Origin: Pseudonocardiaceae bacterium | Lineage (GTDB): Bacteria; Actinomycetota; Actinomycetes; Mycobacteriales; Pseudonocardiaceae | NCBI GenBank assembly: GCA_050699515.1 | Contig: JBOHFF010000071.1 | Location: forward strand, 48,967-80,966 | Direction: 5' to 3' | Length of the DNA: 32,000 nucleotides | Part shown: positions 5,782 to 23,415 of the stretch, piece after piece | Layout of the letters: the number at the start of each line of letters is the position of its first letter | Position numbering within the stretch: position 1 is the stretch's first letter | Position numbers and translations under genes: made by a program | Notes under the pieces: generated by a model | Told to the model about the DNA's origin: nothing | Database searches by the model: none | Seen by the model: the letters and a program-made list of their open reading frames with translations, nothing else

Positions 5782-5842
5782 ACGGGCAACCGGCGCGAAT
5801 GGTTGCATGTCTTCGGTCACTGCCCTCCCGAGGAGGTGGTCC

Positions 5843-8026: not shown

Positions 8027-8243
8027 CTGGTGCGGTCCAGAGCCTGGTGATGCTCGGATCGATGCAGAATGACCGGGCACCGTCCTCCCACCGAAGGGGG
8101 TAGCAGCACATCGGCCGTGCGGCCCGGTCCGGGATTGCTCTGGTCGCGCCTGGGCCAAGGCGTGGGTACCGTTCATGATTGCGGGCATTCGCCACGATTG
8201 CGGGCGTCAGCCCCGTCGCGGCCCGTGCTCTACGGAGGTTCCC

Positions 8244-8810: not shown

Positions 8811-8968
8811 GCTCAGCTGAGGTCTGGTGCTCCTCGAAAGAACTGCCTTCATCTATTCCGGGGTGTTCGCCGAGGCGGGCAAGCGTCCAGCATGCGGGGG
8901 TCCGCCCGCTGCGGTCGAGCGTCAGCGAGGACACCCTGGGTCTGCGTGGGTTTGATTGTGGTCTCGGG

Positions 8969-9190
8969 TCACTTGAGGTGCTTGTTGAACCAGTCGATCG
9001 GGATCTCGGGGTGGGCGCCGAAGTAGTTGTAGCCATCGAAGCGACGGTCCGTGCCTTCGATCCAGTGCAGCTCTTTGTCGGCGACGGACAGGGCATCGAA
9101 GATCGACTGGACGTCTTCATGCCCCGGCGGCGCTGCCGTGGGCGTTCGGGTACCCGTAATCGACCTTGGCAAAACGATCTCAGCGGGCAC
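8969..9190 (-). pseudogene. C-terminal fragment of an alpha/beta-hydrolase (COG1073-like)
   Basis: The 73-aa ORF ends in KELHWIEGTDRRFDGYNYFGAHPEIPIDWFNKHLK, which resembles the last ~60 residues of alpha/beta-fold hydrolases. There is no room upstream for the catalytic core. Confidence 0.45.
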
Positions 9191-9204
9191 GGCGAGTGCC
9201 TGGC

Positions 9205-9276
9205 CTGCGCCACGAGGAGGTCGCCCAGCTCGCCGCGATCAGCACCGACTACTACACCCACCTGGAGCAAGGCGGT
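9205..9276 (+). pseudogene. About 24-codon fragment of an XRE/MmyB-like HTH regulator
   Basis: The frame not reported as an ORF reads LRHEEVAQLAAISTDYYTHLEQGG. This matches the conserved 'GLRREEVAQLAGVSxDYYTRLEQGR' helix of MmyB-type regulators. The similarity stops abruptly on both sides. Confidence 0.4.
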
Positions 9277-9311
9277 GGGACCTCGAGGCCTGGGCATAGG
9301 CTTCGGTGGTG

Positions 9312-9375
9312 TCACAGGCCTAGATAGGATAAGTCCGACTGCCCTTGGGTCTCACAGGCATAGCTTGGGTATGGT
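9312..9375 (+). promoter_or_regulatory. Repeat-rich leader of the BREX operon (candidate operator/promoter)
   Basis: TCACAGGC occurs at 9312-9319 and 9352-9359, 40 bp apart. CTTGGGT occurs at 9344-9350 and 9364-9370, 20 bp apart. A possible TTGGGT, 19 nt, TATGGT arrangement is present. GAGAGGAG precedes the ATG at 9406. The function is inferred only. Confidence 0.3.
9359..9368. repeat. Left copy of the 10-bp direct repeat CATAGCTTGG bracketing the BREX operon
   Basis: An identical 10-mer occurs at 25447-25456. The match is certain. Its significance as an att or target-duplication site is not. Confidence 0.3.
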
Positions 9376-9405
9376 AGAGCGGCGCTGCACGTCAGAGAGG
9401 AGTCG

Positions 9406-9606
9406 ATGATCGTCGAGCCGTGGGTCTCCGTCGAGGGCGTTGCCAGGCATCTCGGGGTGGCTAAGGACTCCGTATACCGGTGGATTGAGACGCGGAGACT
9501 GCCCGCCCACAAGATAGGTCGCTTGTGGAAGTTCAAACTCTCCGAAGTTGACGAGTGGGTTCGAGCTGGTGGTGCCGACGTGCCTGATGACAGCGCGAGT
9601 GGGTGA
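9406..9606 (+). CDS. Excisionase-family (MerR-superfamily) HTH DNA-binding protein, first gene of the BREX array
   Basis: The 66-aa product reads WVSVEGVARHLGVAKDSVYRWIETRRLPAHKIGRLWKFKLSEVDEWV, a typical Xis/AlpA-type HTH. Its stop overlaps the next start (GTGA at 9603-9606). Confidence 0.8.
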   Translation: MIVEPWVSVEGVARHLGVAKDSVYRWIETRRLPAHKIGRLWKFKLSEVDEWVRAGGADVPDDSASG

Positions 9607-10181
9607 CCCACAGGATGACGATATCGAGAGTTGATCTTGAGCGGCTGCTGAAATTGCGGCTCGTCGTGGCACGTTTCGGCGAAATGGATCTTGCCAAGTG
9701 GTGGAACACCAAAGGTCAGCTTGGTCGGCTCGGTGCCAGCGTGCTCCGACGGGGCTTTCCGCGCACGCACCGCTTTGCTCAGGCGCGGTCGGTCTTCGCC
9801 GTAGCGGCCCACCGGTGTGAGGAGATTTTCCACCCTCCAGGGTGTGTCACGCTCTGGCGACTTCCCGAGGAGGTGGAAGAGGAGTTCGACGCCCGATGGG
9901 AGCACTGGCTTGACAACGCCAACGAGTGGAGCTTGTTCTTCGAAGAGTTAGCAGAGCTGAACGGTGGCGATCTTGCTGCCATCCTTCGTGACATGGAGCT
10001 CGTGGCCGAGAGGAACCTGGAGGGGTTCGCCCGGCTGCGGCGTACGGCCGAGGGACGGGCCGTAGCATTGCCTGGAGTATTTTCGAACGGCGAAGAGGAT
10101 GTGAGCCTGTTGGCTCTGGGCTTCGCGCGCGGCGAACCGGGTGCCCTCGCCGTTCCGTACGCCCGGAGGTCGGACCTATGA
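9603..10181 (+). CDS. BrxE-like BREX accessory protein (tentative family assignment)
   Basis: 192 aa (alternative ATG at 9615), coupled on both sides (GTGA at 9603, ATGA at 10178). The sequence (ARFGEMDLAKWWNTKGQLG...FPRTHRFAQARSVFAVA) resembles my recollection of BrxE-family proteins. No enzymatic motif is seen. Confidence 0.55.
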   Translation: MTHRMTISRVDLERLLKLRLVVARFGEMDLAKWWNTKGQLGRLGASVLRRGFPRTHRFAQARSVFAVAAHRCEEIFHPPGCVTLWRLPEEVEEEFDARWEHWLDNANEWSLFFEELAELNGGDLAAILRDMELVAERNLEGFARLRRTAEGRAVALPGVFSNGEEDVSLLALGFARGEPGALAVPYARRSDL

Positions 10182-10960
10182 CGGTTTCGCGCGCTAACGT
10201 GGCGTCGTCCTTCACCGTTATCAAGGGCGCTATGGTCGAGGAAACGTATGCCGTCTTCGCCCACTGGGACTTCACGCGCTCGAAGCGAGAGAATCTGGAC
10301 CGGCTTCGGTCGGACAACACCATCGGCGCTGGCAGCGTGGCGTGGCTCCGTGACGTCGCCAAAGTTCTGAACCGTCGCTTTGACCCCGATGCGCGAGACC
10401 GACCGCTCATTCAGTTGGCCAAGAATGGCTGCGACCTGGACGAGTGGAAACCGCTCCTGCTGTGGCATATGACGCGGGACGAGTTCCTGGTCCGCGATTT
10501 TATCCAGAACTGGCTATTTCCGGCGTACGAGGATGGGCAGTTCCGGATAAGGCCAGAGGATGTTGCGTCGCACCTTTCTTGCATTGATCAGCGTGGTGCT
10601 CTCACCGAACATCCGTGGTCGGCGCCAACGACACATCGAGTAGCAGCTGGCCTGCTCAAGATAGCTGTCGATTTCGGCCTGCTGCGCGGTGGGCCGAAAA
10701 AGGAATTCGCATCATATCACCTGTCCGATCACAGCTTCCTCTACCTCTTGCACGCCATGATGGATGACTTAGGCAGCCCGGGCAAGGTAATTGAATCGCC
10801 GGACTGGCGCCTGTTCTTGATGCGACCGTCTGACATCGAGCACGAGTTGCTGCGTATGCACCAGTTCCGCAAGCTCGACTATCAGGTGGCGGGGAGCATC
10901 GTGCAGCTATCGCTGCCGTGCGCCAACGCTGAAGGTTACGCCGAGAGGATGGTGGCGTGA
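10178..10960 (+). CDS. brxA: BREX protein BrxA (DUF1819 family)
   Basis: 260 aa. The position immediately upstream of brxB/brxC and the DUF1819-like N-terminus (SSFTVIKGAMVEETYAVF...) support the call. ATGA and GTGA coupling to both neighbours. Confidence 0.8.
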   Translation: MTVSRANVASSFTVIKGAMVEETYAVFAHWDFTRSKRENLDRLRSDNTIGAGSVAWLRDVAKVLNRRFDPDARDRPLIQLAKNGCDLDEWKPLLLWHMTRDEFLVRDFIQNWLFPAYEDGQFRIRPEDVASHLSCIDQRGALTEHPWSAPTTHRVAAGLLKIAVDFGLLRGGPKKEFASYHLSDHSFLYLLHAMMDDLGSPGKVIESPDWRLFLMRPSDIEHELLRMHQFRKLDYQVAGSIVQLSLPCANAEGYAERMVA

Positions 10961-11532
10961 GCGACTTCGAGGAGCGACTGCGACAAGTGCTCGAGCCGAT
11001 ACTCGCGATGTCGGATCCGCGGCCACGCATCAGCGCCTATCATGATATGCCGTACGCGCTTTTTGTCTATGACCCGGCCGATGAGTTTCCGCTGCGAAAG
11101 CAGGTGAGGCTACTCGAGACCCGCCTGATGCAGAAGGGCAAGCGGGTTCACAGGATCTCGCTGGTCGAGTGCCTGGACGAGTCCATGCGCTCACAACGGC
11201 CGCTGCCTGATTGGTACGCCGCAGAGCGCGAGCAGGGTCCGGACACGACCGTGGAAACGGTACATGCCGTACTCTCCGACTATTCACCGTTGGTCGAGCA
11301 TGTTACGCGGCGGATGCCGGCAGAGCCGGATCCGCTGCGTGACGTCGTGCTCATTCTCCGTGCCGGGGCACTTTTCCCGGTGTACCGGGCGCACTCGCTA
11401 CTCGAACAGCTGATGGGCCGGGTCCAGGTACCAACCATGTTATTCTATCCCGGCTCCCGAGACGGTGCGGCCGGGCTACGGTTCATGGGCATTCTCGCCG
11501 CCGAGCACAACTACCGCGTGAAGATCTTCTGA
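10957..11532 (+). CDS. brxB: BREX protein BrxB (DUF1788 family)
   Basis: 191 aa with the DUF1788-like motif MPYALFVYDPADEFPLRKQV. It sits in the canonical position between brxA and brxC. Confidence 0.85.
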   Translation: MSDFEERLRQVLEPILAMSDPRPRISAYHDMPYALFVYDPADEFPLRKQVRLLETRLMQKGKRVHRISLVECLDESMRSQRPLPDWYAAEREQGPDTTVETVHAVLSDYSPLVEHVTRRMPAEPDPLRDVVLILRAGALFPVYRAHSLLEQLMGRVQVPTMLFYPGSRDGAAGLRFMGILAAEHNYRVKIF

Positions 11533-11545
11533 CGGGATCATCTCG

Positions 11546-14500
11546 ATGACGACAGGCCAGCCCATTAGCGCCCTCTTCGCCAGCGACATACACCGCCGCA
11601 TCGAAGAGGTCATCAAGGTCGACAAGACCGACGATATGGCAATCTGCGACGAGATCGACGAGTATGTCGTCACCGGCGCTATTCGCGGCCACTATGCGAA
11701 TATCTTCGAGGCGTACCGGCAGACGCCGAACAAGCCGCACGAGGGTATCGCGATCTGGGTGTCCGGTTTTTTCGGCTCCGGGAAATCAAGCTTTGCGAAG
11801 ATGCTCGGCGTGTCCATCGAGAACCGGATCATCGCGGGGGAGCCGGCCGGGCAGCGATTCGCTCGCCGAGCCAATGACAACCAGCTTCAGGTCCTCCTCG
11901 CGGCGATTAACGAACAGATTCCCACCCACGCGGTGATCTTTGATGTATCGACGGACCGGGGAATCCGAAGTGGCAACCAGACGCTGACCGAGATTATGTA
12001 CGGGCTGTTCCTGCATAGTCTGGGCTACGCCAAGGATCTCGATCTGTCCGAGCTGGAGATCTCTCTCGAGGAGAAGGGTGAGCTCGCCCAATTCAAGGGG
12101 GAGTACGAGCGACTCTTCCAGAAGCAATGGGATCAGGAGAAAGGCAAAGTTGCGTTCGCTCTGAGTGAGGCGAGCCGGGTGCTGCACAGCCTGGACACTG
12201 ATACCTACCCGATGGCGGACTCGTGGGTCAAGGCGGTCAAGAACAAGGCGGATATCACGCCGGGAAAGCTCGCCCAGCGAGCGACCGAGTTGATGAACCG
12301 CCGCAGGCCCGGGTACGCCCTCATATTCGTCGTTGACGAGGTCGGCCAGTTTGTGGCACGTGATGTGCAGAAGATGCTTGACCTGCAAGCCATCGTTCAG
12401 AATCTCGGTGTATGGGGGCGCGGCAGGCACTGGCTCGTGGTGACCTCCCAGGAGAAGCTGGGCGAGCTGGTCAGCGGGCTGGACGACAAGAAGATCGAGC
12501 TGGCCCGGCTGATGGATCGGTTCCCGCTCCAGGTCCACCTCGAGCCCTCCGACATCTCCGAGGTGACCAGCCGCCGCGTCTTACGTAAGAATGCCGAAGC
12601 TGAGCGGGTGCTCGGGCAGCTCTTCGATGAGCATCGCGGTCGTCTGCTCGATCACACACGACTCACCGCTGACATCAGGCTGCCGGAACTGAACCGGCAC
12701 AGCTTCATGGATTTGTATCCGCTGCTGCCCTATCAGGTCGACCTCATCATTCAAGTCGTTTCCGGGCTCCGCACGCAGGCCGGCGGGAGCAGGCACGTCG
12801 GCGGCGCGAACCGGACCATCATCAAGCTCGCCCAGCAGCTATTGATCAATCCTGCGGTCAACCTCGCCGATCAGCCGATCGGCATGCTGGTCCGGCTGGA
12901 CCAGGTCTACGACCTGGTTGAGGGAAACATCGGTTCCGAGGTGCGAGCGAAGATCGCCGCGATTCCCCGAGAACTGGACCACCCGCTTGCTCAGCCGGTC
13001 GCGAAGGCAATCTGCCTGCTGCAGTACGTGCGGAGCGTCCATCGCAGTGCCGAGAACATCGCCGCCACGTTGCTTCCGTCCGTCTCCAGCGACTCCCAGC
13101 TGGCGTCGGTGCGGGAGGCGCTCGCGGAACTGGAGGCGGCCCACAAGATTCGCCGCGGAGAAGACGGCTTCCGCATCCCGACCCCGGCGGAGGACGACTG
13201 GGAACGGGTACGCAACGGGATCAGTCCGAAGCCGGGGGATGCGCACCACTTGTACTCGGAGGTCCTGTCGGGTTTCTGGCAGCCACAGCCTTCGCACACC
13301 CTCTTCGACACCAAGACGTTCAAGGCTGGCCTCGCCATTCACGGGCGGGAGGTCACGGCTGGTGATCTGGTCTTCCAGTTCCATCTGGCAGATGAAGGAC
13401 CCGAGTTCGACGCGCTCGCGGTGGAGCTTCGGGTTCGCAGCCAACAGGAACGCAAGCACGTGTTCTGGGCGGTACCACTCACCAATGCCATCGACCACGA
13501 GATCGTCGAGCTGTTCCGCTCCAGGCAGATGCTCGCGCAGAAGGAGCGTGAGGCGCGTGGCGAGGATACGCCAGCGCTCATGGCCGAGGAGCGGCTGCGG
13601 CAACGGCACCACCACGAGGAGCTGCGCCGCCTGCTCCGCGCGGCCTGCCTGACCGGTCGGGTGTATTTCCGCGGCAACGACCGGAGCCCGGGTGACAACG
13701 CGGTCGACGTCGGCAAGACGGCATCGCAGATCCTCGGTCACGTCCTCCCCGATGTTTTCGACCGTTTTCAGGAGGCCGCCGCCAAGGTCAATGATGTGCG
13801 GAAGGCGACCGAGACAATCTTCACCGCGCAGAACCTGCAAGGGCTGCCGCCCGTCTTCAGCAGCCTTGGGTTGCTCCGGGACGAACACGGCAAGATTGTG
13901 TTCCGTGTGGACGGTGGTCCGCTTAAAGAGGTGTTGGACCGTATCGAGGAACGAGCGAACTACGGCGACACCGCTAGCGGGCGCTACCTGGCCGACGAGT
14001 TCGCCAACGAGCCGTTCGGATGGGACTTCGACGTGGTACGCCTGCTCGTCCTGTCGCTGATGCGGGCCGAGAAGATCGAGGCGACCAGTAAGGGCCAGAC
14101 CCTCGACTCGGTGACGACCGTGCAGGCGCGCGACACCTTCTCGAACAACAACCTGTTCCGCCAGGCGGCGTTCCGCCCTCGGAAAGGCATCGAGTTCGAG
14201 GAGCTGGTGAAGGCCAACGAGGCGTTCCGCGATACCTTCGGCGACGACATCGGTGAACTCACCGCCACCACGGTGGCGAGGGAGTTGCGCGAGAAGGTTG
14301 CGAGCACTGAAGAAATCGTGCAGTCCGCGCTCTCGATGCTGACAAGATACCGGCTTCCCGGCGAGTACATGCTGGACACCGCGCTTGGCCAGATGAAGGC
14401 GGTGTTCCGTGGCTCGGTGAACAACGCCATCGCCACATTCAATGCCAGCCATCGGGCCATCAAGGATGCCATCAAGCGCGGTACCGAGCTGTGCGAGGCG

Positions 14501-15091
14501 CTCACCGAACCAAGGCTGTACGACCTGCAACGGGCGCGCCAGGCGGTGGAAATCGCGTGGCCCGCGCTGCGGGACGAGTCTGGGATCGGTCCCGAGCTGG
14601 AGTCGCGGGCCGCTCAACTGGAAGACCTGCTGGCACGCGAGACGTTTTACCGCGACCTGCCGGCGATCGAACAGCACGCCCGCGCGATCGAGCTGGAGTA
14701 CGCCCGCCGCTTCGATGACGCGCAGCAGGCGCGCATCGACGCCTACACCGCGGCCTTGAAGGAACTCACCAGCGAGCCGGGCTGGTACGACCTGCCGGAG
14801 GAGACCCAACAGGAAATCTCTGCCCCGCTGGTGGCTGGCCAACGCCCGTCGCCACGCACCGCGCCGATCTCGCTGCTGCGCTCCGAGCGGGACGCATGCG
14901 AGGGTCGACTTCGCGCGGCGATACGCCGGATGCAGGAGATCATCGAGGGCGACCGGCTGGAGTCGGTCCAGGTCCACTCCTACTTCGCGGGTGGCATCGA
15001 GACCGTGGAGCAGCTGGACGCTGCGCTTTCTGGCCTGCGTGAAGAGTGTGCCAGGCTGATCGGGGCGGGGAAGAAGGTTGTGCTCTCGTGA
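11546..15091 (+). CDS. brxC: BREX P-loop ATPase BrxC/PglY
   Basis: 1181 aa. Walker A GFFGSGKSSFAKML (about 11764-11790). Walker B ALIFVVDEVGQF. Size and position are canonical. Confidence 0.95.
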   Translation: MTTGQPISALFASDIHRRIEEVIKVDKTDDMAICDEIDEYVVTGAIRGHYANIFEAYRQTPNKPHEGIAIWVSGFFGSGKSSFAKMLGVSIENRIIAGEPAGQRFARRANDNQLQVLLAAINEQIPTHAVIFDVSTDRGIRSGNQTLTEIMYGLFLHSLGYAKDLDLSELEISLEEKGELAQFKGEYERLFQKQWDQEKGKVAFALSEASRVLHSLDTDTYPMADSWVKAVKNKADITPGKLAQRATELMNRRRPGYALIFVVDEVGQFVARDVQKMLDLQAIVQNLGVWGRGRHWLVVTSQEKLGELVSGLDDKKIELARLMDRFPLQVHLEPSDISEVTSRRVLRKNAEAERVLGQLFDEHRGRLLDHTRLTADIRLPELNRHSFMDLYPLLPYQVDLIIQVVSGLRTQAGGSRHVGGANRTIIKLAQQLLINPAVNLADQPIGMLVRLDQVYDLVEGNIGSEVRAKIAAIPRELDHPLAQPVAKAICLLQYVRSVHRSAENIAATLLPSVSSDSQLASVREALAELEAAHKIRRGEDGFRIPTPAEDDWERVRNGISPKPGDAHHLYSEVLSGFWQPQPSHTLFDTKTFKAGLAIHGREVTAGDLVFQFHLADEGPEFDALAVELRVRSQQERKHVFWAVPLTNAIDHEIVELFRSRQMLAQKEREARGEDTPALMAEERLRQRHHHEELRRLLRAACLTGRVYFRGNDRSPGDNAVDVGKTASQILGHVLPDVFDRFQEAAAKVNDVRKATETIFTAQNLQGLPPVFSSLGLLRDEHGKIVFRVDGGPLKEVLDRIEERANYGDTASGRYLADEFANEPFGWDFDVVRLLVLSLMRAEKIEATSKGQTLDSVTTVQARDTFSNNNLFRQAAFRPRKGIEFEELVKANEAFRDTFGDDIGELTATTVARELREKVASTEEIVQSALSMLTRYRLPGEYMLDTALGQMKAVFRGSVNNAIATFNASHRAIKDAIKRGTELCEALTEPRLYDLQRARQAVEIAWPALRDESGIGPELESRAAQLEDLLARETFYRDLPAIEQHARAIELEYARRFDDAQQARIDAYTAALKELTSEPGWYDLPEETQQEISAPLVAGQRPSPRTAPISLLRSERDACEGRLRAAIRRMQEIIEGDRLESVQVHSYFAGGIETVEQLDAALSGLREECARLIGAGKKVVLS

Positions 15092-17064
15092 GTGCCCGCA
15101 TCGACTTGACCGAGCTGGCTCGCCGGGAGAACGAGCAGACGGAGTGGAAGGAGAACGTCGCCGAAACCGACGATGTGGTGGCGGCCCTCAGCGCCTTTGC
15201 CAACGACCTGCAGAACCTCGGCGGCGGGTACGTGGTGTGTGGCGTACGGGAGGACAAGGACGAGCACGGTTTCCCGCAGCTGGTGCGCGTCGGCCTGACG
15301 GCCAGCCGCTTCAAGGAGGTCGAAGGGACCGTGCTTGCCGGTTGTCGGGATCGCGTGTCCCCGCCGATCACACCGCTGGTGGAGGAGCTCACGACCGACG
15401 ACCAGCAGCGCCGCATCCTGGTCTTCATTCAGCCGGCGACTGGTACTGCGCACACATTCCGCCGGCGCAACGACGGAGCAAAACACTATGTGCGGGTCAG
15501 CCGCTCAACCATCGAAGCGAGAAACGGGACTCTGAAAGACCTTCTCGTCCGCAAGAGCGCGCTCGAACCATGGGATCGCAGACCGTGCAACGGGGCCACC
15601 GAAGCGGATCTCGATCTACTGGCGTTGCGTGATGCATTGCAACGAATGGGTGTATTCTCCTCTGAGTACGGCGTCGAGCCGTATCTCTCACCGGACGTTT
15701 CGTTGAGCGCATTCGTCCCGCCGCTGCTGGCGGCCGAGCCGCTCACCGGGGTACTCAGGCCGCGCAACTTCGCGATCCTGCTGTTTGGCCGGGAGACCCA
15801 GCGGTTCATCCCGGGTGCCGTCGCGTTCTTCTCCATCTATCCGGGTGTTGATAGGTCCGATGTGCACGCCGAGCGCCACGAGCTGGCTGGCAACGTACTG
15901 GAGCAGGCCCGCCGGCTGCAGGAGCTGCTCGACATCCAGTCGTACACCGCGTTTGACAAGGCCGATCCGACCTCGCCGAACGTCATCAAGTATCCAAAGC
16001 GTGCCCTGTACGAGGCGATGGGGAATGCGCTGGCGCACCGAGACTACGAGCTGCCGGATTCTACACGGCTGACGGTCTTCTCCGACCGGATCGAGGTCGC
16101 CTCACCCGGTCCGCTCCCGTCCGGCGTAGACATCGAATACCTGCGCCAGGGCACTGCGCCGCCACGGTGGCGCAACCAGGCGCTCGCCTGGTTCTTCTCC
16201 CGGCTACAGCTCGCGCAGGCGAAGGGGCAAGGCATCCCCACGATCCTCCGTTCCATGCGGGAAGGGGGCTGTCCCCCGCCGATCTTCATAGCCGACCCCG
16301 TTCGGGTCGCCTGCACGCTGCCGGCGCATCCGCGGCATGCCGCGCTTCGCGCTCTCCGCTCCGCCGAGCAGGCACTCGCTCTAGGCGAGTTGGCGGAAGC
16401 GAAGACCCAAGTTGAGCGGGTCCTGGGCCGGGACCCGCTCAACTTCCGCGCCATCAACCTGTTTGCCGAGGTGCATCACGCTCGGCGGGATGCCGCGGCG
16501 GTGTCGGCCTGGGTGCGGGAGCACCTCCGTCACCTTGACGGGCTGCCACCGCAAGTCCTGGTCCAGCTCGCCGAGGCGTTGGAGAACGACCGGGCGAGCA
16601 CCGAACATAAGGCTCTCGCGCGGACGCTCCTCGCATCCGCTGCGCGAGGACGGTTGGAGGAGCGCGAGCTCCGGCGTATCGCCGTGGCGATGAGCCGCGC
16701 GAACGACTACCAGGGCGCACTGTCCTTGATCGAACGGCACCTTCAGGAGCACCCGGAGTGGCAGGGCAATCCCTCGCTGCGGCAACTGCGCGGGGACTCG
16801 CTCATCGGCCTGGCGAAGCGGTGCAGGGCAACCGCGACGAAGGCGGGCATCGCGCGCGCCACGCGAGAGCGGGCCTGGCGAGAGTTCCACTCGTACCTCA
16901 ACCAAGCAGAGCACGAGCTTCGTGAGGGCCTCGCCCTCAGCCTGGATGAGAACCTGAGCGACCAGATCCGGCGGAACCTAGACTACCTCGAACGACTGAG
17001 GGGCGAGAACCAGCCTCCACAGATCCGGCCAGCGCGCAGCCGACGGAGGGGGTCCCGTGGATAA
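15088..17064 (+). CDS. AlbA_2 (Schlafen-core-like) + HATPase_c_4 + C-terminal TPR-like helical-repeat protein, non-canonical BREX-embedded gene
   Basis: GTG at 15088 overlaps the brxC stop (GTGA). The N-terminus RENEQTEWKENV...GGGYVVCGV is AlbA_2-like. The centre is HATPase_c_4-like: YEAMGNALAHRDYE..RIEVASPGPLPSGV..RWRNQALAWFFSRLQLAQAKGQGIPTILRSMREGGCPPPIF. The last ~260 aa are helical repeats (ALALGELAEAKTQVERVLGRDPLNFRAINLFAEVHH...). The pglX GTG lies 8 nt inside its 3' end. Confidence 0.85.
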   Translation: MSARIDLTELARRENEQTEWKENVAETDDVVAALSAFANDLQNLGGGYVVCGVREDKDEHGFPQLVRVGLTASRFKEVEGTVLAGCRDRVSPPITPLVEELTTDDQQRRILVFIQPATGTAHTFRRRNDGAKHYVRVSRSTIEARNGTLKDLLVRKSALEPWDRRPCNGATEADLDLLALRDALQRMGVFSSEYGVEPYLSPDVSLSAFVPPLLAAEPLTGVLRPRNFAILLFGRETQRFIPGAVAFFSIYPGVDRSDVHAERHELAGNVLEQARRLQELLDIQSYTAFDKADPTSPNVIKYPKRALYEAMGNALAHRDYELPDSTRLTVFSDRIEVASPGPLPSGVDIEYLRQGTAPPRWRNQALAWFFSRLQLAQAKGQGIPTILRSMREGGCPPPIFIADPVRVACTLPAHPRHAALRALRSAEQALALGELAEAKTQVERVLGRDPLNFRAINLFAEVHHARRDAAAVSAWVREHLRHLDGLPPQVLVQLAEALENDRASTEHKALARTLLASAARGRLEERELRRIAVAMSRANDYQGALSLIERHLQEHPEWQGNPSLRQLRGDSLIGLAKRCRATATKAGIARATRERAWREFHSYLNQAEHELREGLALSLDENLSDQIRRNLDYLERLRGENQPPQIRPARSRRRGSRG

Positions 17065-20000
17065 GCAGACGCGCAATGCCATCGATAACGCCACCCAAAG
17101 GGCCCGGAGGCTGCTGGAAGAAGACTTCGCGGCGCAACTCGAGGGTGACTTCGACGTGCTGCGCAGCGGTGCGGTGGCCGACGTCGCCGGAGGACATCTC
17201 ACACCGCGACAGGTCTTCCACCGAGAGAAGATCGTCGCCACGCTGAACCATAAGTGCGCTGCGGGGATGACTGTGGCCGAGGCGGTCGCGGACTACATCC
17301 GCGACGCCGCGTTCACCACGCTGAACCGCTTCGCTGCATTGAAGATGCTCGAGGCTCGCGGCCTGGTGCTGCAATGCGTGAGCAAAGGCGAGGCCTCCGC
17401 TGGCTACAGCGAATTCTGCGGGCTCGCGCCGAGCCTGCCGCTGCTGCCCCACAGCGCCGGCTACCGCCTGTACATCGAGTCGCTGTTCGACGAGCTGTCC
17501 ACCGAGGTGAAGGTGCTGTTCGACCGGCGCGACCCGGCGTCGGTGCTGTGGCCCAGACGCGCCGCGTTCGACGAGCTGCTCGACATTCTCAACGCACCCG
17601 GCCTAGCCGGCATCTGGGGCGAGGACGAAACGATCGGCTGGTTCTACCAGTACTTCAACAGCGGTGACGAACGCCGGAAGATGCGCGAAAGCCAGGTGCC
17701 ACGCAACAGCCGCGAACTGGCCATCCGCAACCAGTTCTTCACTCCCCGGTACGTCGTGGAGTTCCTCACCGACAACACGCTGGGGCGCATCTGGTATGAG
17801 ATGCGCGAAACCAAGACGGCGCTGGCGGACCAGTGCGAGTACATAGTGCGCAGGCCCGATGAGGAGTTCGCCCCTCGGCCGAAGAAAGATCCGCGGGACA
17901 TCCGGGTGCTGGATCCGGCGTGCGGCAGTGGACACTTCCTGCTGTACGCGTTCGACCTGCTCATCACGATGTACGAGGAGGCGCACGCCGACCCGGAGAG
18001 CCCGGCAAGCGAAGCGACCGGTCGGACCCTCGCAGAGGATTACCCGAGCCTGGACGAACTGCGGCGAGCGATTCCTGGTCTTGTGCTCGCGCACAACCTC
18101 TACGGCGTCGACATCGATCCGAGATGCGCACAGATCGCCCAACTGGCACTGTGGATTCGGACCCAGCGAGCGTACCGGGACTTCGGCATCCGCCGTGACC
18201 AGCGTCCACAAATCCGGCGCTCGAACATCGTCATTGCGGAGCCGCTAGTCGCTGATGGCCGGGTCGCGGCTGACTTCCTGGCACGTCTAGATGATGACGA
18301 GCTCAAGCAGGTCTTCAAGGATCTGGTTGATGTGCTAGCCCTAGCAGGCGACCTGGGGCTGCTGCTTCGGCTGGAGTCGCGCGGGACACGGCCGTTGGCG
18401 CGTGGATATGAATGGGACCTCTTCACACCGACGGACGACCGCCTGCGCGGGGCGCTGGTCCGGTTTGCTGCGGACGAGAGTGGCGCGGCAAATATGCGGC
18501 GACGTCTCTTTGTGAATGACGCCATGCATGGCATGGGGCTTATCGCCCTGGCAAGCCGGAAGTATGATGCTGTGCTGATGAACCCTCCGTTTGGTGACTT
18601 TGCGTCTGATGTTCAACAGTTTGCCAAGGAGCAATACTCACATGGGCGAAATGACATTTATACCGCCATGGTGCTGCGGGGGCGCGAACTCCTACTTGAC
18701 AGTGGTCGAATTGGCGTAATTACATCGAGTTCATTTATGCTCGGGCGGGACCACCGTCGTTTTCGGCAGGCCATTTTGAACCTGTCAGGACCACGAGTTT
18801 CACTTCTTCTCAATCTTGGTTGCGGTGTCCTCGATCAAGCGATGGTAGAGACGACTGCGTACGTTTTGATGTCTAATGTCGAGAATATTGCTATTACGTC
18901 TGTTGCCAGTGTCAAGGAAATTGAAGCCGCGACCAAGGATGCTTGTCGACGTTGGAGTACATGGCGAATTTTCGCACATTCATACTTTGCAGCAATGCCA
19001 ATGATGCAGTTTATCTATGGTATCGATGTGGAGGTTGGTAGTCAGCTTGATGATAGAACAATCTCACTTGACCCAAGCTTTGGTCGGGTAACTAAAGGGC
19101 TTTCTACGCCTGACAATTTTAGGTACATCCGCCTCCGCTGGGAGCTCGCACCAGATGCGCTTGAGCTGGGCTGGCAGCTGTGCGCGAAGGGGGGTGAGTA
19201 CGCGTGGTTCTCGGGGGACCTGCATCTGTTAGTTAACCGGGTTGCGTCGGGAAAGGAAATGGCAGCCTCGTCTGAGCCTGCAGGCGGGAATGTTGCGCGA
19301 ACGAGGCAGTCGTCGACATATTATGGCCGTGCGGCTGTAACCTGGTCACGTCGAAGCCAAAAGGGGTTCAGTGTCCGAAGGCTCCGCAAGGGAGCATGTT
19401 TCCTAGACAAGAGCGGCGTCATTGTGCCTAAGGAGGAGGGTGAAGAAGATTTGCTACCCGCGATCATGGCGGCGCTCGCAACAAATAAATACCAGTCTCT
19501 GATCCGCGTCCAGTCGCGATTTGGGGCATATGAAACGGGGATGGTTGGCCTTCTGCCAGCGCCCGCGGCACTTCTCCAGGCGTCGTGCGACTGGGGGATG
19601 ATTGCCGAGGTTGTCGATGAATTCGAGAGTCATTTCGAAACCAATCAGATATTTTCATCACCCCCACCCCCGAATTGGAATCCCGTAGTCTCGTTGGATT
19701 CTGCATTCAATACACTTGCCGACAATCTTCAAAGCTGCGGATATGAGCTCGACGAGACGGTTAGACGCAACGAGGTCTCCCGCCTTGAGGCATTGCGCGA
19801 GCAATACGGCTACCAAAACGCTTGGCTATCGTTCCTCTTTGGAGTGGCGATTGGGCGGTGGGACAAGAGATTACTGTCTGGCGATCGGACTCTTCGGAGG
19901 CGCCCCGGATTGTTTGACGATCTTGGCATTTGCGCACCTGCTGAGAACGTCCATGACGCAGCTGGGCCACCTGTGTCGAACACTGGTGTGGTAACGGATG

Positions 20001-20857
20001 ATGACGGCACGCCTGATAATGTTCTCGCTTCGGTTGTTAGAGCAGCAGAAACTGTGCTTGAGGCCGGGTTGGCCGGGCCGTTGTTCCTAGACGTTCCTCA
20101 GCTCCGACGATGGTTTGCAACGGAGTTCTTTGACTACCATCTTCGGCGCTATTCACGTAGCCGACGTTCCGCGCCTGTGTACTGGCAGCTGGCAACATCA
20201 TCGGCTAGCTACTCGGTGTGGCTGTACATCCAGGCGTTCACCAGGGACACCTTGTTTCGCGTACAGAATGACTATGTTGTGCCGAAGCTCGAGCACGAGC
20301 AGCGCCGCCTGGAGACGATGCTCCGCGAGTTCGGCGAACGGACGACCGCTGCGGAGCGTCGCGGGCTCGCGGACCAGGAAGCATTCGTCGGCGAGCTGCG
20401 GGATTTCCTGGACGAAGTGAAGCGGGTAGCGCCGTTGTGGAACCCGAACCTCGACGACGGAGTGATTGTCAATTTCGCGCCGTTGTGGCGCCTGGTTCCG
20501 CAGCACAAGCCATGGCAGCGGGAGCTGAAGGCGACATGGGACGCGCTGTGCGAGGGCACATACGACTGGGCCCACCTCGCGATGCACCTGTGGCCGGAGC
20601 GGGTCGTCCCGGAGTGCGTGGTGGACCGGAGTCTCGCCATCGCGCACGATCTGGAGGAGGTGTTCTGGGTGCAGGGCGACGACGGCAAGTGGTCAGCGCG
20701 ACTGGCCCCTACCGTCCCGGTTGAGCAGCTGGTCCGGGAGCGGACATCCACCGCGGTCAAGTCCGCGCTGCGGAGCGTGCTCACTGCCCCGATCACGAAT
20801 GGGCGTGGGCGGCGTCGGCGTGGTGCGCCCGGTACCGGCAACGGCGGAGGTCGCTGA
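17057..20857 (+). CDS. pglX: BREX type-1 N6-adenine DNA methyltransferase PglX
   Basis: 1266 aa. SAM motif I VLDPACGSGHFLLYAFD (about 17905-17937). Catalytic motif IV NPPF (18581-18592). The N- and C-termini are typical of PglX. Confidence 0.95.
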   Translation: MDKQTRNAIDNATQRARRLLEEDFAAQLEGDFDVLRSGAVADVAGGHLTPRQVFHREKIVATLNHKCAAGMTVAEAVADYIRDAAFTTLNRFAALKMLEARGLVLQCVSKGEASAGYSEFCGLAPSLPLLPHSAGYRLYIESLFDELSTEVKVLFDRRDPASVLWPRRAAFDELLDILNAPGLAGIWGEDETIGWFYQYFNSGDERRKMRESQVPRNSRELAIRNQFFTPRYVVEFLTDNTLGRIWYEMRETKTALADQCEYIVRRPDEEFAPRPKKDPRDIRVLDPACGSGHFLLYAFDLLITMYEEAHADPESPASEATGRTLAEDYPSLDELRRAIPGLVLAHNLYGVDIDPRCAQIAQLALWIRTQRAYRDFGIRRDQRPQIRRSNIVIAEPLVADGRVAADFLARLDDDELKQVFKDLVDVLALAGDLGLLLRLESRGTRPLARGYEWDLFTPTDDRLRGALVRFAADESGAANMRRRLFVNDAMHGMGLIALASRKYDAVLMNPPFGDFASDVQQFAKEQYSHGRNDIYTAMVLRGRELLLDSGRIGVITSSSFMLGRDHRRFRQAILNLSGPRVSLLLNLGCGVLDQAMVETTAYVLMSNVENIAITSVASVKEIEAATKDACRRWSTWRIFAHSYFAAMPMMQFIYGIDVEVGSQLDDRTISLDPSFGRVTKGLSTPDNFRYIRLRWELAPDALELGWQLCAKGGEYAWFSGDLHLLVNRVASGKEMAASSEPAGGNVARTRQSSTYYGRAAVTWSRRSQKGFSVRRLRKGACFLDKSGVIVPKEEGEEDLLPAIMAALATNKYQSLIRVQSRFGAYETGMVGLLPAPAALLQASCDWGMIAEVVDEFESHFETNQIFSSPPPPNWNPVVSLDSAFNTLADNLQSCGYELDETVRRNEVSRLEALREQYGYQNAWLSFLFGVAIGRWDKRLLSGDRTLRRRPGLFDDLGICAPAENVHDAAGPPVSNTGVVTDDDGTPDNVLASVVRAAETVLEAGLAGPLFLDVPQLRRWFATEFFDYHLRRYSRSRRSAPVYWQLATSSASYSVWLYIQAFTRDTLFRVQNDYVVPKLEHEQRRLETMLREFGERTTAAERRGLADQEAFVGELRDFLDEVKRVAPLWNPNLDDGVIVNFAPLWRLVPQHKPWQRELKATWDALCEGTYDWAHLAMHLWPERVVPECVVDRSLAIAHDLEEVFWVQGDDGKWSARLAPTVPVEQLVRERTSTAVKSALRSVLTAPITNGRGRRRRGAPGTGNGGGR

Positions 20858-23415
20858 TGCACCCACTGCACGACTATGTGGCGAAGTGGCTCGCTGATGA
20901 GATCCGACGTCATTCGGTTGTCGTCTGGTACGACGAGCGGGCGGAGTTCGCACCGTTCATCGATGAGATCCGCGGCGGGCCGCGCACCGGCGACGAGGCG
21001 GTGCGGGTGACGGTGAACGACACGAGCGTCTGGCTCGCCGAGTACGCCGGCTCGATGTTCGAACTACGCGCGGCGGCCGAGCCGTACATCGGCGGCGACT
21101 CACCGGACCCCGTCGTCGTTTACCTCCCCGGCCGCGCGCGCGACCTGGACAGTTCAGTCCTGGCGGAGCTGGAGCAGGCGGGAACGGTCTTGACCCAGCG
21201 GCTTGTTGACGATACCGCTAGGCATCTCCTGCTGCGGAAGTACACCCTCGGCGTGGTCGATGCGATGCTCTCGCCCGGCCGAAGGCTCGCCTACGAGGAC
21301 ATCGCGCGGCTGGCGCGCAGTGACGGGCCGGAGCCACCGTCGGTCCTCAGGAGCGTCTTCCATGACGTCAAAGGAGCGGAAGCGGTGCTGGCCGCCTGGT
21401 TGGCGGACGACTCGCGCGACGCCGACATCAGCAGTAAGGCCGCCACCCCCGAATTGGTCGCCCTCATCCACAAGGCGCTCGGGCTTCAACCGCCCCGAGA
21501 AGCGTCGCTGTCGAAGCTGAGGGCGATAACTATCCGGTACGTGCTGGCGAACGAGTTCCGCATGGATCTGTCCTGCGACCCGCCAGCCGCGCTCGATGGC
21601 GTGCCGACGCCATCCGCGCCGGATGCCGAATCGGCGGTGCGGGAACTGGCGAAGGTTCTGCGGGCGGATCATCCGAAGGTGTATCCGACGCTGGCGGATC
21701 AGGTCGAGGCTGAGCTCGGTCTGCGTGATGTGACTTTGCCCGCAGGTTTCTTGGGGTCGATTGACACATTCCGTTTCGAGGAGCGGGAGCTCCTGCGTCA
21801 CTGCGGCGAGCTCATCGCTGAGGGCCGGTACGACGAAGCGCTCAGCGTGGTCACCCAACGCCAGCGCAGCTTCTGGCTCGACCTCGACGTTGGACGCAGG
21901 ACCCAATGGGAGGTGGTCCGCCGGATGGCCGAACTCGGCGGCCTGGCCGTCCGGGTGCGCGCCGAGGTGGCCAAGGCCAACGGTGACGCGCAGACCTGGC
22001 TCAGCAGATATACCTCCGCTCCTTACGAGTGGTACCGGATGGACCAGGCACAGCGGCGCCTCGAAGCGTTGGTAGCCACTCTCCACGACGACCCCGACGA
22101 GCGGCCGCTTGGTCTGGTGCGGCGAGTGTACGAGGACACCTGCCATCAGATGGCCGCCGGTTTCACCAGGGCGCTGGTCTCATCCGGCTGGACGGTTCCG
22201 GGGGCCCTGCACCAAACGCAGATCTACCGGGACGTCGTATCCGCGCAACCGAAGCCGGTCGCCTACTTCTTCGTCGACGCCATGCGGTACGAGATGGGTA
22301 TCGGATTGATGCAACTGCTGCCGGCGAGCTCCGAGGTGTCTGTCCGCCCCGCGATCGCCGCGTTGCCCAGCATCACGCCCATCGGCATGGCCGCGCTGCA
22401 ACCGGGCGCATCATCCAGCTTCTCCGTGCGCGAACAGGGCGGCAAGCTTGGCGCCCAGATCGAAGACGCGTTCCTCCCCGATCTCGCTGCGCGCAAGAAG
22501 TTCGCCGAGGCACGGATACCGAAGCTGGCCGACCTGGAACTTATCGAGCTGCTGAGCCTACAACCAGCCAGGCTGGCGAAGCGGATCAACGGTGCGCAGG
22601 TGGTTGTGGTCCGCTCACAGGAGATCGACCAGGTCGGTGAGGCCGGGTTCACCTACCATGCCAGGCAGGTTATGGACACCGTTATCGAGAATCTCGCTCG
22701 GGCAGTCCGCAAGCTCGCCGCGGCCGGTGTAGCGCACGCGGTGGTGACTGCCGACCACGGTCACCTGTTCTTCGCCGCCGACCGCGACGAGTCGATGCGA
22801 ACGGACTCGCCCGGAGGCAATACAGTCGACCTGCACCGGCGCTGCTGGATCGGTCGAGGCGGTGCGACCCCGCCGGGATGCGTGCGGGTCGCGGCATCCG
22901 CCCTCGGCTATGCGTCTGACCTGGAACTCGTGTTCCCCACCGGTACTGGCGTATTCCGGGCGGGGGGTGACCTCGCCTACCACCACGGCGGGCCATCGCT
23001 GCAAGAGCTCGTCGTGCCGGTCGTCACGATCCGCACCTCGGCGCACCAGGCCAAGCCGGTCACGGCTCCGGTCATATCCGTCAGTGACGTGCCGCAGACC
23101 ATCACGGTTCGGATCGTGCCGGCCACCGTGACCCTTGGCGACGACCAGCTGGTGCTCGGTGCGACCGGCATGGCTGTCCGGGCCGTGCTCGTCTCGAACG
23201 GCAGGCAGGTCGGGGCCGTTGGCATGGTACGCGACGCCGAGTTCGACGCTGAGACCGAGCAAATACGGTTGGAACCGGGCCAGCCAGCCGCGGTCGCGTT
23301 CGTGCTCAACGACGACACCATTGCGTCCCTGCGGATCGTGATACTCGACCCGGCCACCGACGCGGAGCTGTACCGGTCGCCAAAGGAAATCCCCATTCGG
23401 CTCGGTGTGCAATGA
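20857..23415 (+). CDS. pglZ: BREX alkaline-phosphatase-superfamily protein PglZ
   Basis: 852 aa. PglZ core motif AYFFVDAMRYEMG and TADHGHLF. The ATG shares one nt with the pglX stop (TGATG) and is preceded by GGCGGAGG. Confidence 0.95.
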   Translation: MHPLHDYVAKWLADEIRRHSVVVWYDERAEFAPFIDEIRGGPRTGDEAVRVTVNDTSVWLAEYAGSMFELRAAAEPYIGGDSPDPVVVYLPGRARDLDSSVLAELEQAGTVLTQRLVDDTARHLLLRKYTLGVVDAMLSPGRRLAYEDIARLARSDGPEPPSVLRSVFHDVKGAEAVLAAWLADDSRDADISSKAATPELVALIHKALGLQPPREASLSKLRAITIRYVLANEFRMDLSCDPPAALDGVPTPSAPDAESAVRELAKVLRADHPKVYPTLADQVEAELGLRDVTLPAGFLGSIDTFRFEERELLRHCGELIAEGRYDEALSVVTQRQRSFWLDLDVGRRTQWEVVRRMAELGGLAVRVRAEVAKANGDAQTWLSRYTSAPYEWYRMDQAQRRLEALVATLHDDPDERPLGLVRRVYEDTCHQMAAGFTRALVSSGWTVPGALHQTQIYRDVVSAQPKPVAYFFVDAMRYEMGIGLMQLLPASSEVSVRPAIAALPSITPIGMAALQPGASSSFSVREQGGKLGAQIEDAFLPDLAARKKFAEARIPKLADLELIELLSLQPARLAKRINGAQVVVVRSQEIDQVGEAGFTYHARQVMDTVIENLARAVRKLAAAGVAHAVVTADHGHLFFAADRDESMRTDSPGGNTVDLHRRCWIGRGGATPPGCVRVAASALGYASDLELVFPTGTGVFRAGGDLAYHHGGPSLQELVVPVVTIRTSAHQAKPVTAPVISVSDVPQTITVRIVPATVTLGDDQLVLGATGMAVRAVLVSNGRQVGAVGMVRDAEFDAETEQIRLEPGQPAAVAFVLNDDTIASLRIVILDPATDAELYRSPKEIPIRLGVQ

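What the first reader, a model, noticed from the sequence alone, without database searches (positions are those of the whole stretch)
15088..17064. Uncharacterised AlbA_2/Schlafen-like + HATPase_c_4 + TPR-like protein hard-wired between brxC and pglX
Canonical type-1 BREX is brxA-brxB-brxC-pglX-pglZ-brxL (Goldfarb et al. 2015). Here a 658-codon gene occupies the brxC-pglX junction.

It looks like an integral operon member rather than a recent insertion, for three reasons:
- Its GTG overlaps the brxC stop (GTGA at 15088-15091).
- The pglX GTG (17057) lies 8 nt inside its 3' end.
- Its base composition matches its neighbours.

By eye the protein combines an AlbA_2-type nucleic-acid-binding domain with a HATPase_c_4 domain. 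AlbA_2 is the fold at the core of Schlafen proteins. This pairing is the COG2865 'RecG-like regulator' architecture that I recall as recurrent in type I R-M loci and defence islands.

The winged-helix that usually ends such proteins is replaced here by about 260 aa of TPR-like helical repeats, a likely protein- or ligand-interaction module.

Auxiliary defence genes embedded in enterobacterial BREX loci are known (the GmrSD-type BrxU, and PARIS). I know of no characterised BREX component with this architecture. It could be a sensor or regulator of the methyltransferase/PglZ machinery, or an independent effector.
Basis: partly seen in the sequence, partly recalled or inferred. Interest (0 to 1): 0.8.

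Follow-up and report, generated by a model that had tools for sequence, protein, structure and literature searches.

The report
Schlafen-type RNase gene riding inside BREX
The gene between brxC and pglX is real and encodes a Schlafen-type RNase fused to an ATPase and a helical-repeat tail. It is an optional add-on that some BREX phage-defence operons carry, not a core part, and papers from 2025-2026 have already catalogued this association.

Summary
There is a 658-codon ORF at 15088-17064. Its GTG overlaps the brxC stop, and its last 8 nt overlap the pglX GTG. Its domains are Schlafen/AlbA_2, then HATPase_c_4 (a GHKL ATPase), then about 225 aa of TPR-like helices.

- **Enzyme class.** The protein is a "Schlatpase", a prokaryotic Schlafen nuclease plus GHKL ATPase. 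Its E-x4-E-x-K, SAFAN and E..N ATP/Mg motifs are intact.
- **Not a core part.** Only 2 of 13 closely related BrxE-type BREX loci with a visible junction carry it.
- **Mostly solitary.** About 59 of 80 family members sit alone among unrelated, mostly housekeeping genes.
- **Outlives BREX.** In Sorangium and Frankia the gene survives intact after the surrounding BREX genes have been deleted.
- **The tail is not a BREX adaptor.** At the same junction, other loci carry the same core with a basic Lys/Ala/Pro tail or a winged helix instead of TPR.
- **The junction is a hotspot.** More distant BREX-1 loci carry a HEPN RNase gene there.

Three recent papers already link Schlafen-ATPase genes to BREX, and the Sorangium orthologue is listed in one of them.

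The most likely function is an accessory, phage-triggered tRNase that causes abortive infection. No experiment has tested this. Only the TPR tail is new.

The parts
9406..9606 (+). 66-aa HTH_17 (excisionase/MerR-like) ORF. It is the first gene of the operon and its stop overlaps the brxE GTG. It is a candidate operon regulator.
   Evidence: PF12728, E 5.5e-15. Conserved upstream of brxE in L001, L005, L016, L036 and L046.
9603..10181 (+). BrxE-family gene
   Evidence: NF033447, E 3.8e-47
10178..10960 (+). brxA
10957..11532 (+). brxB
11546..15091 (+). brxC. Its stop (15089-15091) lies inside the GTGA that starts X.
15088..17064 (+). X: the 658-aa Schlafen-GHKL ('Schlatpase') protein with a TPR-like tail. 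This is the finding.
15088..15567 (+). Schlafen/AlbA_2 nuclease domain (aa 1-160)
   Evidence: Pfam. Domain model has pLDDT 86 and pTM 0.83. Foldseek hits 3LMM, 2KYY, SLFN13 5YD0 and SLFN11 7ZEP.
15127..15150 (+). Predicted catalytic motif E14-x4-E19-x-K21
   Evidence: Read from the sequence. Conserved in 18/18 embedded, 3/3 remnant and 56-59/59 solitary copies. Motif definition.
15190..15228 (+). SAFAN 'Schlafen box' (aa 35-39), followed by D40 and the GGG stretch at aa 45-47
   Evidence: motif definition
15988..16329 (+). GHKL ATPase domain (HATPase_c_4), about aa 301-414. E309 and N313 form an E-x3-N pattern like RzAgo E314/N318.
16330..17007 (+). TPR-like alpha-solenoid (aa 415-640), net basic. 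Found only in this protein family.
17008..17064 (+). Arg-rich C-terminal tail and stop codon. The last 8 nt overlap the pglX start.
17057..20857 (+). pglX. Here it is one fused 1266-aa ORF.
20857..23415 (+). pglZ
23412..25451 (+). brxL

Best explanation
X is an accessory, self-contained prokaryotic Schlafen effector of the 'Schlatpase' type. It has been captured at the brxC-pglX junction of one lineage of BrxE-containing type-1 BREX operons, where it is co-transcribed and translationally coupled with the core genes.

Proposed mechanism, by analogy with characterised relatives:
1. The GHKL domain binds ATP and drives oligomerisation.
2. Oligomerisation brings two single-lobed Schlafen domains together into an active, metal-dependent RNase.
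3. The RNase cuts tRNA and stops translation. This gives an abortive-infection layer that backs up BREX.
4. The exchangeable, net-basic C-terminal module (TPR here; a Lys/Ala/Pro tail or a winged helix in sister loci) is the sensor or gate that keeps the nuclease off until an infection cue appears.

Shown here: domain identity, intact catalytic and ATP-binding motifs, operon coupling, sporadic presence, and independence from BREX.

Inferred only: tRNase activity, ATP-driven assembly, what triggers it, and any anti-phage effect.
For: Domains and motifs:
- Both Pfam domains score above their cut-offs.
- The N-terminal domain model matches bacterial AlbA_2 structures, and then SLFN13 and SLFN11.
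- E14-x4-E19-x-K21, SAFAN, D40, GGG, E309 and N313 are invariant or nearly so in all 80 copies examined.
- These are the motifs defined for active prokaryotic Schlafens and for RzAgo. In RzAgo, D32A abolishes tRNA cleavage and E314/N318 coordinate ATP-Mg.
- PADLOC matches X only to Schlafen-pAgo-type models and to no BREX model.

Autonomy:
- About 59 of 80 family loci are solitary, with unrelated neighbours.
- L040 and L053 (Sorangium) and L004 (Frankia) keep X after deletion of the surrounding BREX genes. X is intact in L040 and L004; in L053 it has lost its first 17 codons, including E14.
- In a neighbour-joining tree, embedded and solitary copies are interleaved and the deep clades are all solitary.
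- X is missing from 11 of 13 of the nearest BREX loci.

Accessory-effector slot:
- HEPN RiboL-PSP RNase genes, or a second Schlatpase, occupy the same junction in other BREX-1 loci.
- Published surveys classify BREX-linked Schlafen-kinase-wHTH genes as backup RNase effectors, report a BREX-associated Schlafen-ATPase cluster, and list the L039 orthologue with its BREX neighbours.
Against: - No experiment exists on this clade.
- In the Nat Microbiol study, constructs with a Schlafen-HisKinase architecture were among the seven tested. Only the DUF262 and Ig-like fusions protected against the phage panel.
- The conserved overlap at both junctions across phyla, and the moderate co-divergence of X with BrxC (r = 0.63), suggest more than casual hitch-hiking.
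- Most solitary copies are not in recognisable defence islands, which is unusual for a defence gene.
- The GHKL part of the full-length model has low confidence.
Confidence: 0.6

Rival explanations
1. X is functionally wired into BREX as a guard. It monitors BrxC or PglX (or their inhibition by phage anti-BREX proteins such as DNA mimics) and fires its RNase only when BREX is blocked. Its function would then depend on the BREX context.
For: - The translational coupling to brxC and pglX is conserved across Actinomycetota, Myxococcota and Holophagales, whichever C-terminal variant is present.
- X and BrxC divergence are correlated.
- All three C-terminal variants are basic and could bind polyanions such as nucleic acids.
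- The published idea of backup effectors in BREX loci.
Against: - Most family members have no BREX next to them, and all of their catalytic motifs are intact.
- X is retained after the BREX genes are deleted.
- It is absent from 11 of 13 nearest BREX loci.
Confidence: 0.15
2. X is a nucleic-acid-binding regulator of the operon, at the transcriptional or post-transcriptional level, as the database labels 'predicted HTH transcriptional regulator / COG2865' imply. On this view it is not a suicidal nuclease.
For: - Source annotations.
- The closest solved structure is DIP2311 (3LMM), whose Pfam C-terminal domain is named 'Transcriptional regulator DIP2311-like'.
- Sister loci L060 and L068 end in a sequence that looks like a winged helix.
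Against: - The window protein has no HTH.
- A dedicated HTH_17 gene already heads the operon.
- Strict conservation of the nuclease triad and the ATP-site residues is not expected of a mere DNA binder.
- Solitary copies sit beside unrelated genes, so there is no consistent regulatory target.
Confidence: 0.1
3. The family has a primarily non-defence role, for example stress-induced RNA turnover or tRNA quality control. Its presence in BREX operons is then a neutral or selfish insertion with no contribution to immunity.
For: - Solitary copies are flanked mostly by housekeeping genes such as EutA, aconitase, sigma-70 factors and transporters.
- Sequence conservation is unusually high across phyla, at 58-82%.
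- 30% of prokaryotic Schlafens in the published survey lack defence neighbours.
Against: - The patchy distribution across phyla, and the different genomic position in each genome, point to horizontal transfer typical of defence genes.
- Capture at the same BREX junction recurs, and other loci hold RNase effectors there.
- Characterised prokaryotic Schlafens are anti-phage.
Confidence: 0.1

Closest known systems
Schlatpase supradomain (Schlafen AlbA_2 + GHKL ATPase PF13749), characterised in the SLFN-pAgo RzAgo of Runella zeae (bioRxiv 10.64898/2026.05.29.728809)
   Same: - Same two Pfam domains in the same order.
- Same E(x)4(D/E)xK motif, SAFAN box and E-x3-N ATP/Mg residues.
- The PADLOC pAgo model PDLC02394 aligns to aa 6-342 of X.
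   Different: - X has no Argonaute core, so there is no guide-RNA sensor.
- Its C-terminus is a private TPR-like solenoid.
- Oligomerisation and tRNase activity have not been tested for X.
BREX-linked Schlafen RNase + minimal histidine kinase + wHTH 'backup effectors' (NAR 2026, PMC12839542); BREX-associated Schlafen-ATPase cluster 2 (Nat Commun 2026, PMC13462974)
   Same: - A Schlafen + GHKL gene embedded in or next to core BREX genes.
- Sister loci L060 and L068 of this very family have the wHTH-like ending.
- The L039 orthologue is listed with its BREX neighbours in the prokaryotic Schlafen survey.
   Different: - The window copy replaces the wHTH with about 225 aa of TPR-like repeats. This variant is not mentioned in the main text of those papers.
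- Those papers are computational catalogues. None tests a BREX-embedded copy.
DIP2311 of Corynebacterium diphtheriae (PDB 3LMM) / COG2865 'RecG-like' proteins
   Same: Best structural and sequence match in the PDB (Foldseek E 2.5e-10; hmmsearch E 1.5e-7 over the GHKL domain).
   Different: - DIP2311 ends in a DIP2311-like_C wHTH domain (PF22168), which X lacks.
- Only 14-18% identity.
- The function of DIP2311 is itself unknown.
   Same: Optional second-layer effector genes embedded in a BREX operon. The HEPN genes occupy exactly the brxC-pglX slot.
   Different: Unrelated folds and chemistry. BrxU is an HNH DNase and PARIS is an ABC ATPase plus a TOPRIM nuclease.
pSlfn9 ('pSlfn.TPR', 36 members) in the Taboada et al. 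classification
   Same: A Schlafen domain fused to a TPR region, annotated by structural homology.
   Different: - The listed examples are about 530 aa and are annotated without a His-kinase/GHKL domain.
- I could not check whether they are related to X.

Membership tests
Prokaryotic Schlafen nuclease (pSlfn; Pfam PF04326 SLFN_AlbA_2) | Profile match above the curated cut-off | tested here: met
   40.7 bits against 25.3, aa 14-143
Prokaryotic Schlafen nuclease (pSlfn; Pfam PF04326 SLFN_AlbA_2) | Catalytic E-x4-(E/D)-x-K motif | tested here: met
   E14-NEQT-E19-W-K21. Conserved in 77-80 of 80 copies. Motif as defined.
Prokaryotic Schlafen nuclease (pSlfn; Pfam PF04326 SLFN_AlbA_2) | SAFAN 'Schlafen box' followed by a Gly/hydrophobic core | tested here: met
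   S35-A-F-A-N39-D40...G45GGYVVCG
Prokaryotic Schlafen nuclease (pSlfn; Pfam PF04326 SLFN_AlbA_2) | Fold resembling the nuclease lobe of mammalian Schlafens | tested here: met
   The domain model (pLDDT 86) hits SLFN13 5YD0 (E 9e-4, prob 0.92) and SLFN11 7ZEP (prob 0.97), ranked after the bacterial AlbA_2 structures. TM-scores are modest, 0.3-0.4.
Prokaryotic Schlafen nuclease (pSlfn; Pfam PF04326 SLFN_AlbA_2) | Metal-dependent tRNA/RNA cleavage | not testable with these tools
   Needs biochemistry
Schlatpase supradomain (SLFN + GHKL ATPase) | HATPase_c_4 (PF13749) domain C-terminal to the Schlafen domain | tested here: met
   67.3 bits against 26, aa 327-410. Aligns to the same domain of 3LMM.
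Schlatpase supradomain (SLFN + GHKL ATPase) | Glu and Asn that coordinate ATP gamma-phosphate and Mg (RzAgo E314, N318) | tested here: inconclusive
   E309-x3-N313 has the same spacing and is invariant. However, I did not align X directly to RzAgo, and the model is poor here.
Schlatpase supradomain (SLFN + GHKL ATPase) | ATP-driven dimer/tetramer assembly that activates the nuclease | not testable with these tools
   Known only for RzAgo
Core component of type-1 BREX | Present in (nearly) all loci of the subtype | tested here: not met
   Present in 2 of 13 closely related loci with a visible junction, and in none of the more distant ones
Core component of type-1 BREX | Matches a BREX protein model | tested here: not met
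   No BREX model hit in PADLOC or NCBIfam
Core component of type-1 BREX | Found only together with BREX genes | tested here: not met
   About 59 of 80 family loci are solitary, and the gene survives BREX deletion
COG2865 / DIP2311-like regulators (AlbA_2 + HATPase_c_4 + wHTH) | C-terminal winged helix (PF22168 or another HTH) | tested here: not met
   No HTH hit in X. For contrast, the second Schlatpase in L084 does have DIP2311-like_C.
TPR repeat proteins | Sequence match to TPR profiles above the cut-off | tested here: not met
   Best scores 21.7 and 19.9 bits against a cut-off of about 25
TPR repeat proteins | Alpha-solenoid of paired helices resembling solved TPR domains | tested here: met
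   Eleven helices with pLDDT 85-95. Foldseek prob 1.0 to many TPR structures, E 1e-4 to 1e-3.

The most novel reading that the evidence does not exclude
The Schlatpase is a BREX-coupled guard. Translational coupling fixes its stoichiometry with BrxC and PglX. Its basic C-terminal module (TPR, K/A/P tail or wHTH) senses a polyanionic cue, such as a phage DNA-mimic anti-BREX protein or unmodified phage nucleic acid handed over by BREX. Sensing then releases ATP-dependent assembly of the tRNase. This would be the first mechanistic link between BREX surveillance and an abortive-infection output. It would also explain why RNase genes (Schlafen, HEPN) recur at exactly the brxC-pglX junction.
Probability: 0.15. 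Interest if true: 0.7.

Novelty: new variant of a known kind. Interest (0 to 1): 0.33.

Why it matters
How BREX stops phage is still unsolved, and accessory genes inside BREX operons are one route to that answer. This locus supplies a clean natural series: the same Schlafen-ATPase core at the same junction with three different tails, close BREX relatives without it, and copies that survived loss of BREX.

That series could be used to test two things. One is whether second-layer RNase effectors act independently of BREX. The other is what their exchangeable C-terminal modules sense.

It does not reveal a new BREX component or a new kind of system.

Tried and rejected
- **Promoter and terminator scan of 9-26.5 kb.** Counts were no higher than in shuffled sequence, so it says nothing about internal promoters.
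- **Plasmid collection.** Only distant Schlatpases at 30% identity or less, none with the TPR tail. There is no evidence that the family is plasmid-borne.
- **Stand-alone TPR proteins.** Hits of about 260 aa to the TPR module looked like free-standing or differently fused proteins. Their sequences start at the internal Met390 or inside the GHKL domain of X-type proteins, so they are gene fragments. The idea of a portable sensor module was rejected.
- **Type I R-M context.** The Pfam census of two neighbours on each side showed mostly housekeeping genes. The only defence-like hits were 3 AAA_21 and 2 Uma2.
- **PDB profile search.** It reached only 3LMM and 2KYY, not the mammalian Schlafens.
- **Caveat on neighbour genes.** They were called with a crude ORF and clustering script, so individual gene boundaries in the loci are approximate.
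Full report
**1. The observation**

The window carries a tightly packed plus-strand operon:

| Coordinates | Gene |
|---|---|
| 9406-9606 | 66-aa HTH_17 gene |
| 9603-10181 | BrxE-family gene |
| 10178-10960 | brxA |
| 10957-11532 | brxB |
| 11546-15091 | brxC |
| 15088-17064 | the ORF in question, called X here |
| 17057-20857 | pglX |
| 20857-23415 | pglZ |
| 23412-25451 | brxL |

- The GTG of X sits in a GTGA that also holds the brxC stop.
- The pglX GTG lies 8 nt inside X.
- GC content does not differ from the neighbours.
- An in-frame GTG at 15046 exists, but homologues start at the position of 15088.
- Pfam places SLFN_AlbA_2 at aa 14-143 and HATPase_c_4 at aa 327-410, both well above their cut-offs. 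TPR profiles are sub-threshold.
- An AlphaFold model (mean pLDDT 76) shows a confident all-helical solenoid at aa 415-640. Foldseek matches it to many TPR structures. The best overall hit is DIP2311 (3LMM), a bacterial AlbA_2 + HATPase_c_4 + winged-helix protein.

**2. What the protein is**

X belongs to a sharply defined family. There are 1713 homologues, and the best 120 are nearly all about 650 aa and 58-100% identical. They come from Actinomycetota, Myxococcota, Acidobacteriota, Proteobacteria and Armatimonadota. An identical protein is annotated in a Pseudonocardiaceae MAG.

The N-terminal domain carries three features:
- E14-x4-E19-x-K21
- the SAFAN box at aa 35-39, with D40
- a GGG stretch at aa 45-47

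These are the features that two recent studies define as the active site and signature of prokaryotic Schlafen RNases. A separate model of aa 1-165 (pLDDT 86) matches bacterial AlbA_2 structures and then SLFN13 and SLFN11.

The GHKL domain keeps E309-x3-N313. This has the same spacing as RzAgo E314/N318, which coordinate ATP and Mg.

All these residues are invariant or nearly so in 80 copies, whatever their genomic context.

The Schlafen + PF13749 pair has been named the 'Schlatpase' supradomain. In the Schlafen-Argonaute RzAgo, ATP binding drives tetramerisation. That pairs two single-lobed Schlafen domains into an active tRNase. PADLOC matches X only to such pAgo-associated models and to no BREX model.

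**3. Core part or passenger?**

I fetched 80 genomic loci that encode relatives and mapped the window's BREX proteins onto them.

- **Embedded copies.** Seventeen loci show X directly downstream of brxC, followed by pglX wherever the contig extends that far. They come from several phyla. The RTGA overlap with brxC is found in 14 of 18 embedded loci (counting the window), and the -8 nt overlap with pglX in 9. Where X is embedded, the arrangement is old and stable. X and BrxC divergence are moderately correlated (r = 0.63).
- **Solitary copies.** About 59 loci have X alone. A Pfam census of the two genes on either side found no recurrent partner. The neighbours are mostly housekeeping genes such as EutA, glycogen phosphorylase, sigma factors, aconitase and transporters.
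- **Tree.** In a neighbour-joining tree of the conserved core, embedded and solitary copies are interleaved and the deepest clades are all solitary.
- **Survivors of BREX decay.**
  - S. cellulosum So ce26 (L040) is the same locus as So0157-2 (L039). Its brxE-brxC and pglX-brxL genes are deleted, and X is kept at 95% nucleotide identity.
  - Sorangium sp. So ce315 (L053) is similar.
  - Frankia sp. Cr3 (L004) has a patchwork of brxB, brxC and pglX remnants around an X that aligns over essentially its full length to the Parafrankia orthologue (a masked stretch of Ns lies just downstream).
  - Several solitary copies still carry 20-110 nt of the brxC 3' end.
- **The reverse test.** I scanned metagenomes with a BrxC alignment. 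Among BrxE-type loci with BrxC at least 48% identical and a visible junction, 11 of 13 have brxC immediately followed by pglX. This includes loci with BrxC 68-75% identical to the window's. Only L084 and L096 carry X.

**4. The junction and the tail**

More distant BREX-1 loci hold other genes in the same brxC-pglX slot:
- a RiboL-PSP HEPN RNase gene of about 270 aa (L104, L106, L109, L127)
- a small TPR protein (L110)
- in L084, X followed by a second Schlatpase with a DIP2311-like winged helix

The junction is therefore a general docking site for accessory genes, mostly RNases.

Within X's own family, the embedded copies come with three different C-termini after an almost identical 410-aa core:
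- the TPR-like solenoid
- a Lys/Ala/Pro-rich basic tail of about 65 aa (L036, L039, L042, L044, L045)
- a sequence that by eye resembles a winged helix (L060, L068; Pfam finds no HTH domain in either)

The TPR form also occurs in solitary copies. The TPR tail therefore cannot be a BREX-specific adaptor.

A search of 1.84 billion cluster representatives with the TPR module alone found only 85 hits. Apart from three weak partial matches to long generic repeat proteins, those inspected are X-type proteins or their fragments. The module is thus private to this family. It is usually net basic and ends in an Arg-rich tail. This is compatible with, but does not prove, binding to a polyanion.

**5. 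Mechanism**

I consider X an autonomous, phage-triggered tRNase of the Schlatpase kind that some BREX operons carry as a second layer (confidence 0.6).

- Shown here: fold, motifs, coupling, sporadic presence and independence from BREX.
- Inferred from RzAgo, RorSlfn5 and the CRISPR-associated Schlafen Cash: ATP-driven assembly, tRNA cleavage, abortive infection, and a sensing role for the tail.
- Caveat: in the published screen, Schlafen-HisKinase constructs were among the seven tested, and only the DUF262 and Ig-like fusions protected.
- Rivals: a BREX-dependent guard (0.15), an operon regulator (0.10, weakened by the missing HTH and by the HTH_17 gene at the head of the operon), and a non-defence RNA-metabolism role (0.10, suggested by the housekeeping neighbourhoods).

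**6. Comparison with what is known, and novelty**

- A 2026 NAR survey reports Schlafen RNases fused to a minimal histidine kinase and wHTH, closely linked to BREX and BREX-related core loci in at least 1017 taxa. It interprets them as backup suicidal effectors.
- A 2026 Nature Communications paper describes a BREX-associated Schlafen-ATPase cluster.
- The supplementary table of the prokaryotic Schlafen survey lists the Sorangium orthologue (WP_020733583.1, my L039) with its brxE, brxA, brxB, brxC, pglX and pglZ neighbours.

The association is therefore already catalogued, though not tested experimentally. The additions from this analysis are:
- the TPR-tailed variant
- the three-tail series at one junction
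- the conserved overlap geometry
- the recurrent survival of X after BREX decay
- the numbers showing that X is optional

I rate the finding as a new variant of a known kind, with modest interest.

Noticed in passing
window 9406-9606 (+): A 66-aa HTH_17 (excisionase/MerR-like) ORF. Its stop overlaps the brxE GTG at 9603. It is conserved at the head of the operon in L001, L005, L016, L036 and L046, and is probably the operon's regulator.
   Followed up: partly
window 9603-10181 (+): A BrxE-family gene heads a BREX locus that is otherwise type 1 (brxL present, no helicase). The literature describes BrxE as exclusive to type 6. All close relatives of this BrxC subfamily also have it.
   Followed up: partly
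window 17057-20857; GC dip at about 18000-20000: pglX is one fused 1266-aa ORF here, and also in L036 and L007. In most related loci it is split into two ORFs in different frames (about 608 aa and about 690 aa), breaking near aa 607-676. The poorly conserved stretch (aa about 610-920, 29-45% identity) coincides with a drop in GC to 0.55-0.57. This may be a swapped target-recognition region.
   Followed up: partly
L104:7605-8435, L106:5740-6630, L127:9665-10483, L109:8067-8903; similar ORFs in L107, L108 and L128: In more distant BREX-1 loci, a RiboL-PSP HEPN gene of about 270 aa sits between brxC and pglX, in the same slot that X occupies here. L110 has a 219-aa TPR-only protein there.
   Followed up: partly
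L084:3936-5888 and 5891-7618: Two Schlatpase genes in tandem between brxC and pglX. The first is an X-type copy with the TPR tail. The second is a divergent copy with AlkZ-like and DIP2311-like_C winged-helix domains.
   Followed up: no
L040 (S. cellulosum So ce26), L053 (Sorangium sp. So ce315), L004 (Frankia sp. Cr3): Decayed BREX loci in which X is kept while the brx and pgl genes are deleted or fragmented. In L040 the downstream breakpoint abuts a sequence that is repeated elsewhere in the locus, possibly an IS element. In L053, X has lost its first 17 codons, including E14.
   Followed up: partly
L036, L039, L042, L044, L045, L040, L049: C-terminal 40-90 aa of X: Lys/Ala/Pro-rich, histone-H1-like basic tails replace the TPR module. 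L045 contains the repeat AVKKAVKKAVKKAVKK.
   Followed up: no
window 25540-32000: Downstream of brxL lie several sizeable ORFs. Those at 25540-26262 (+, 240 aa), 26699-27238 (+) and 30175-31731 (-, 518 aa) have no significant family match. The 489-aa protein at 28044-29513 has only an N-terminal HTH_31. They could be further defence-island cargo.
   Followed up: no
window 1-9400: The upstream flank is ordinary metabolism: a solute-binding protein plus a fused ABC/TOBE transporter (527-3340), an alpha/beta hydrolase (3926-5323, minus strand), an AMP-binding enzyme (5807-7492), a cold-shock-domain protein (7505-8026) and an EF-hand protein (8175-8810). The BREX island starts abruptly near 9400.
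   Followed up: no
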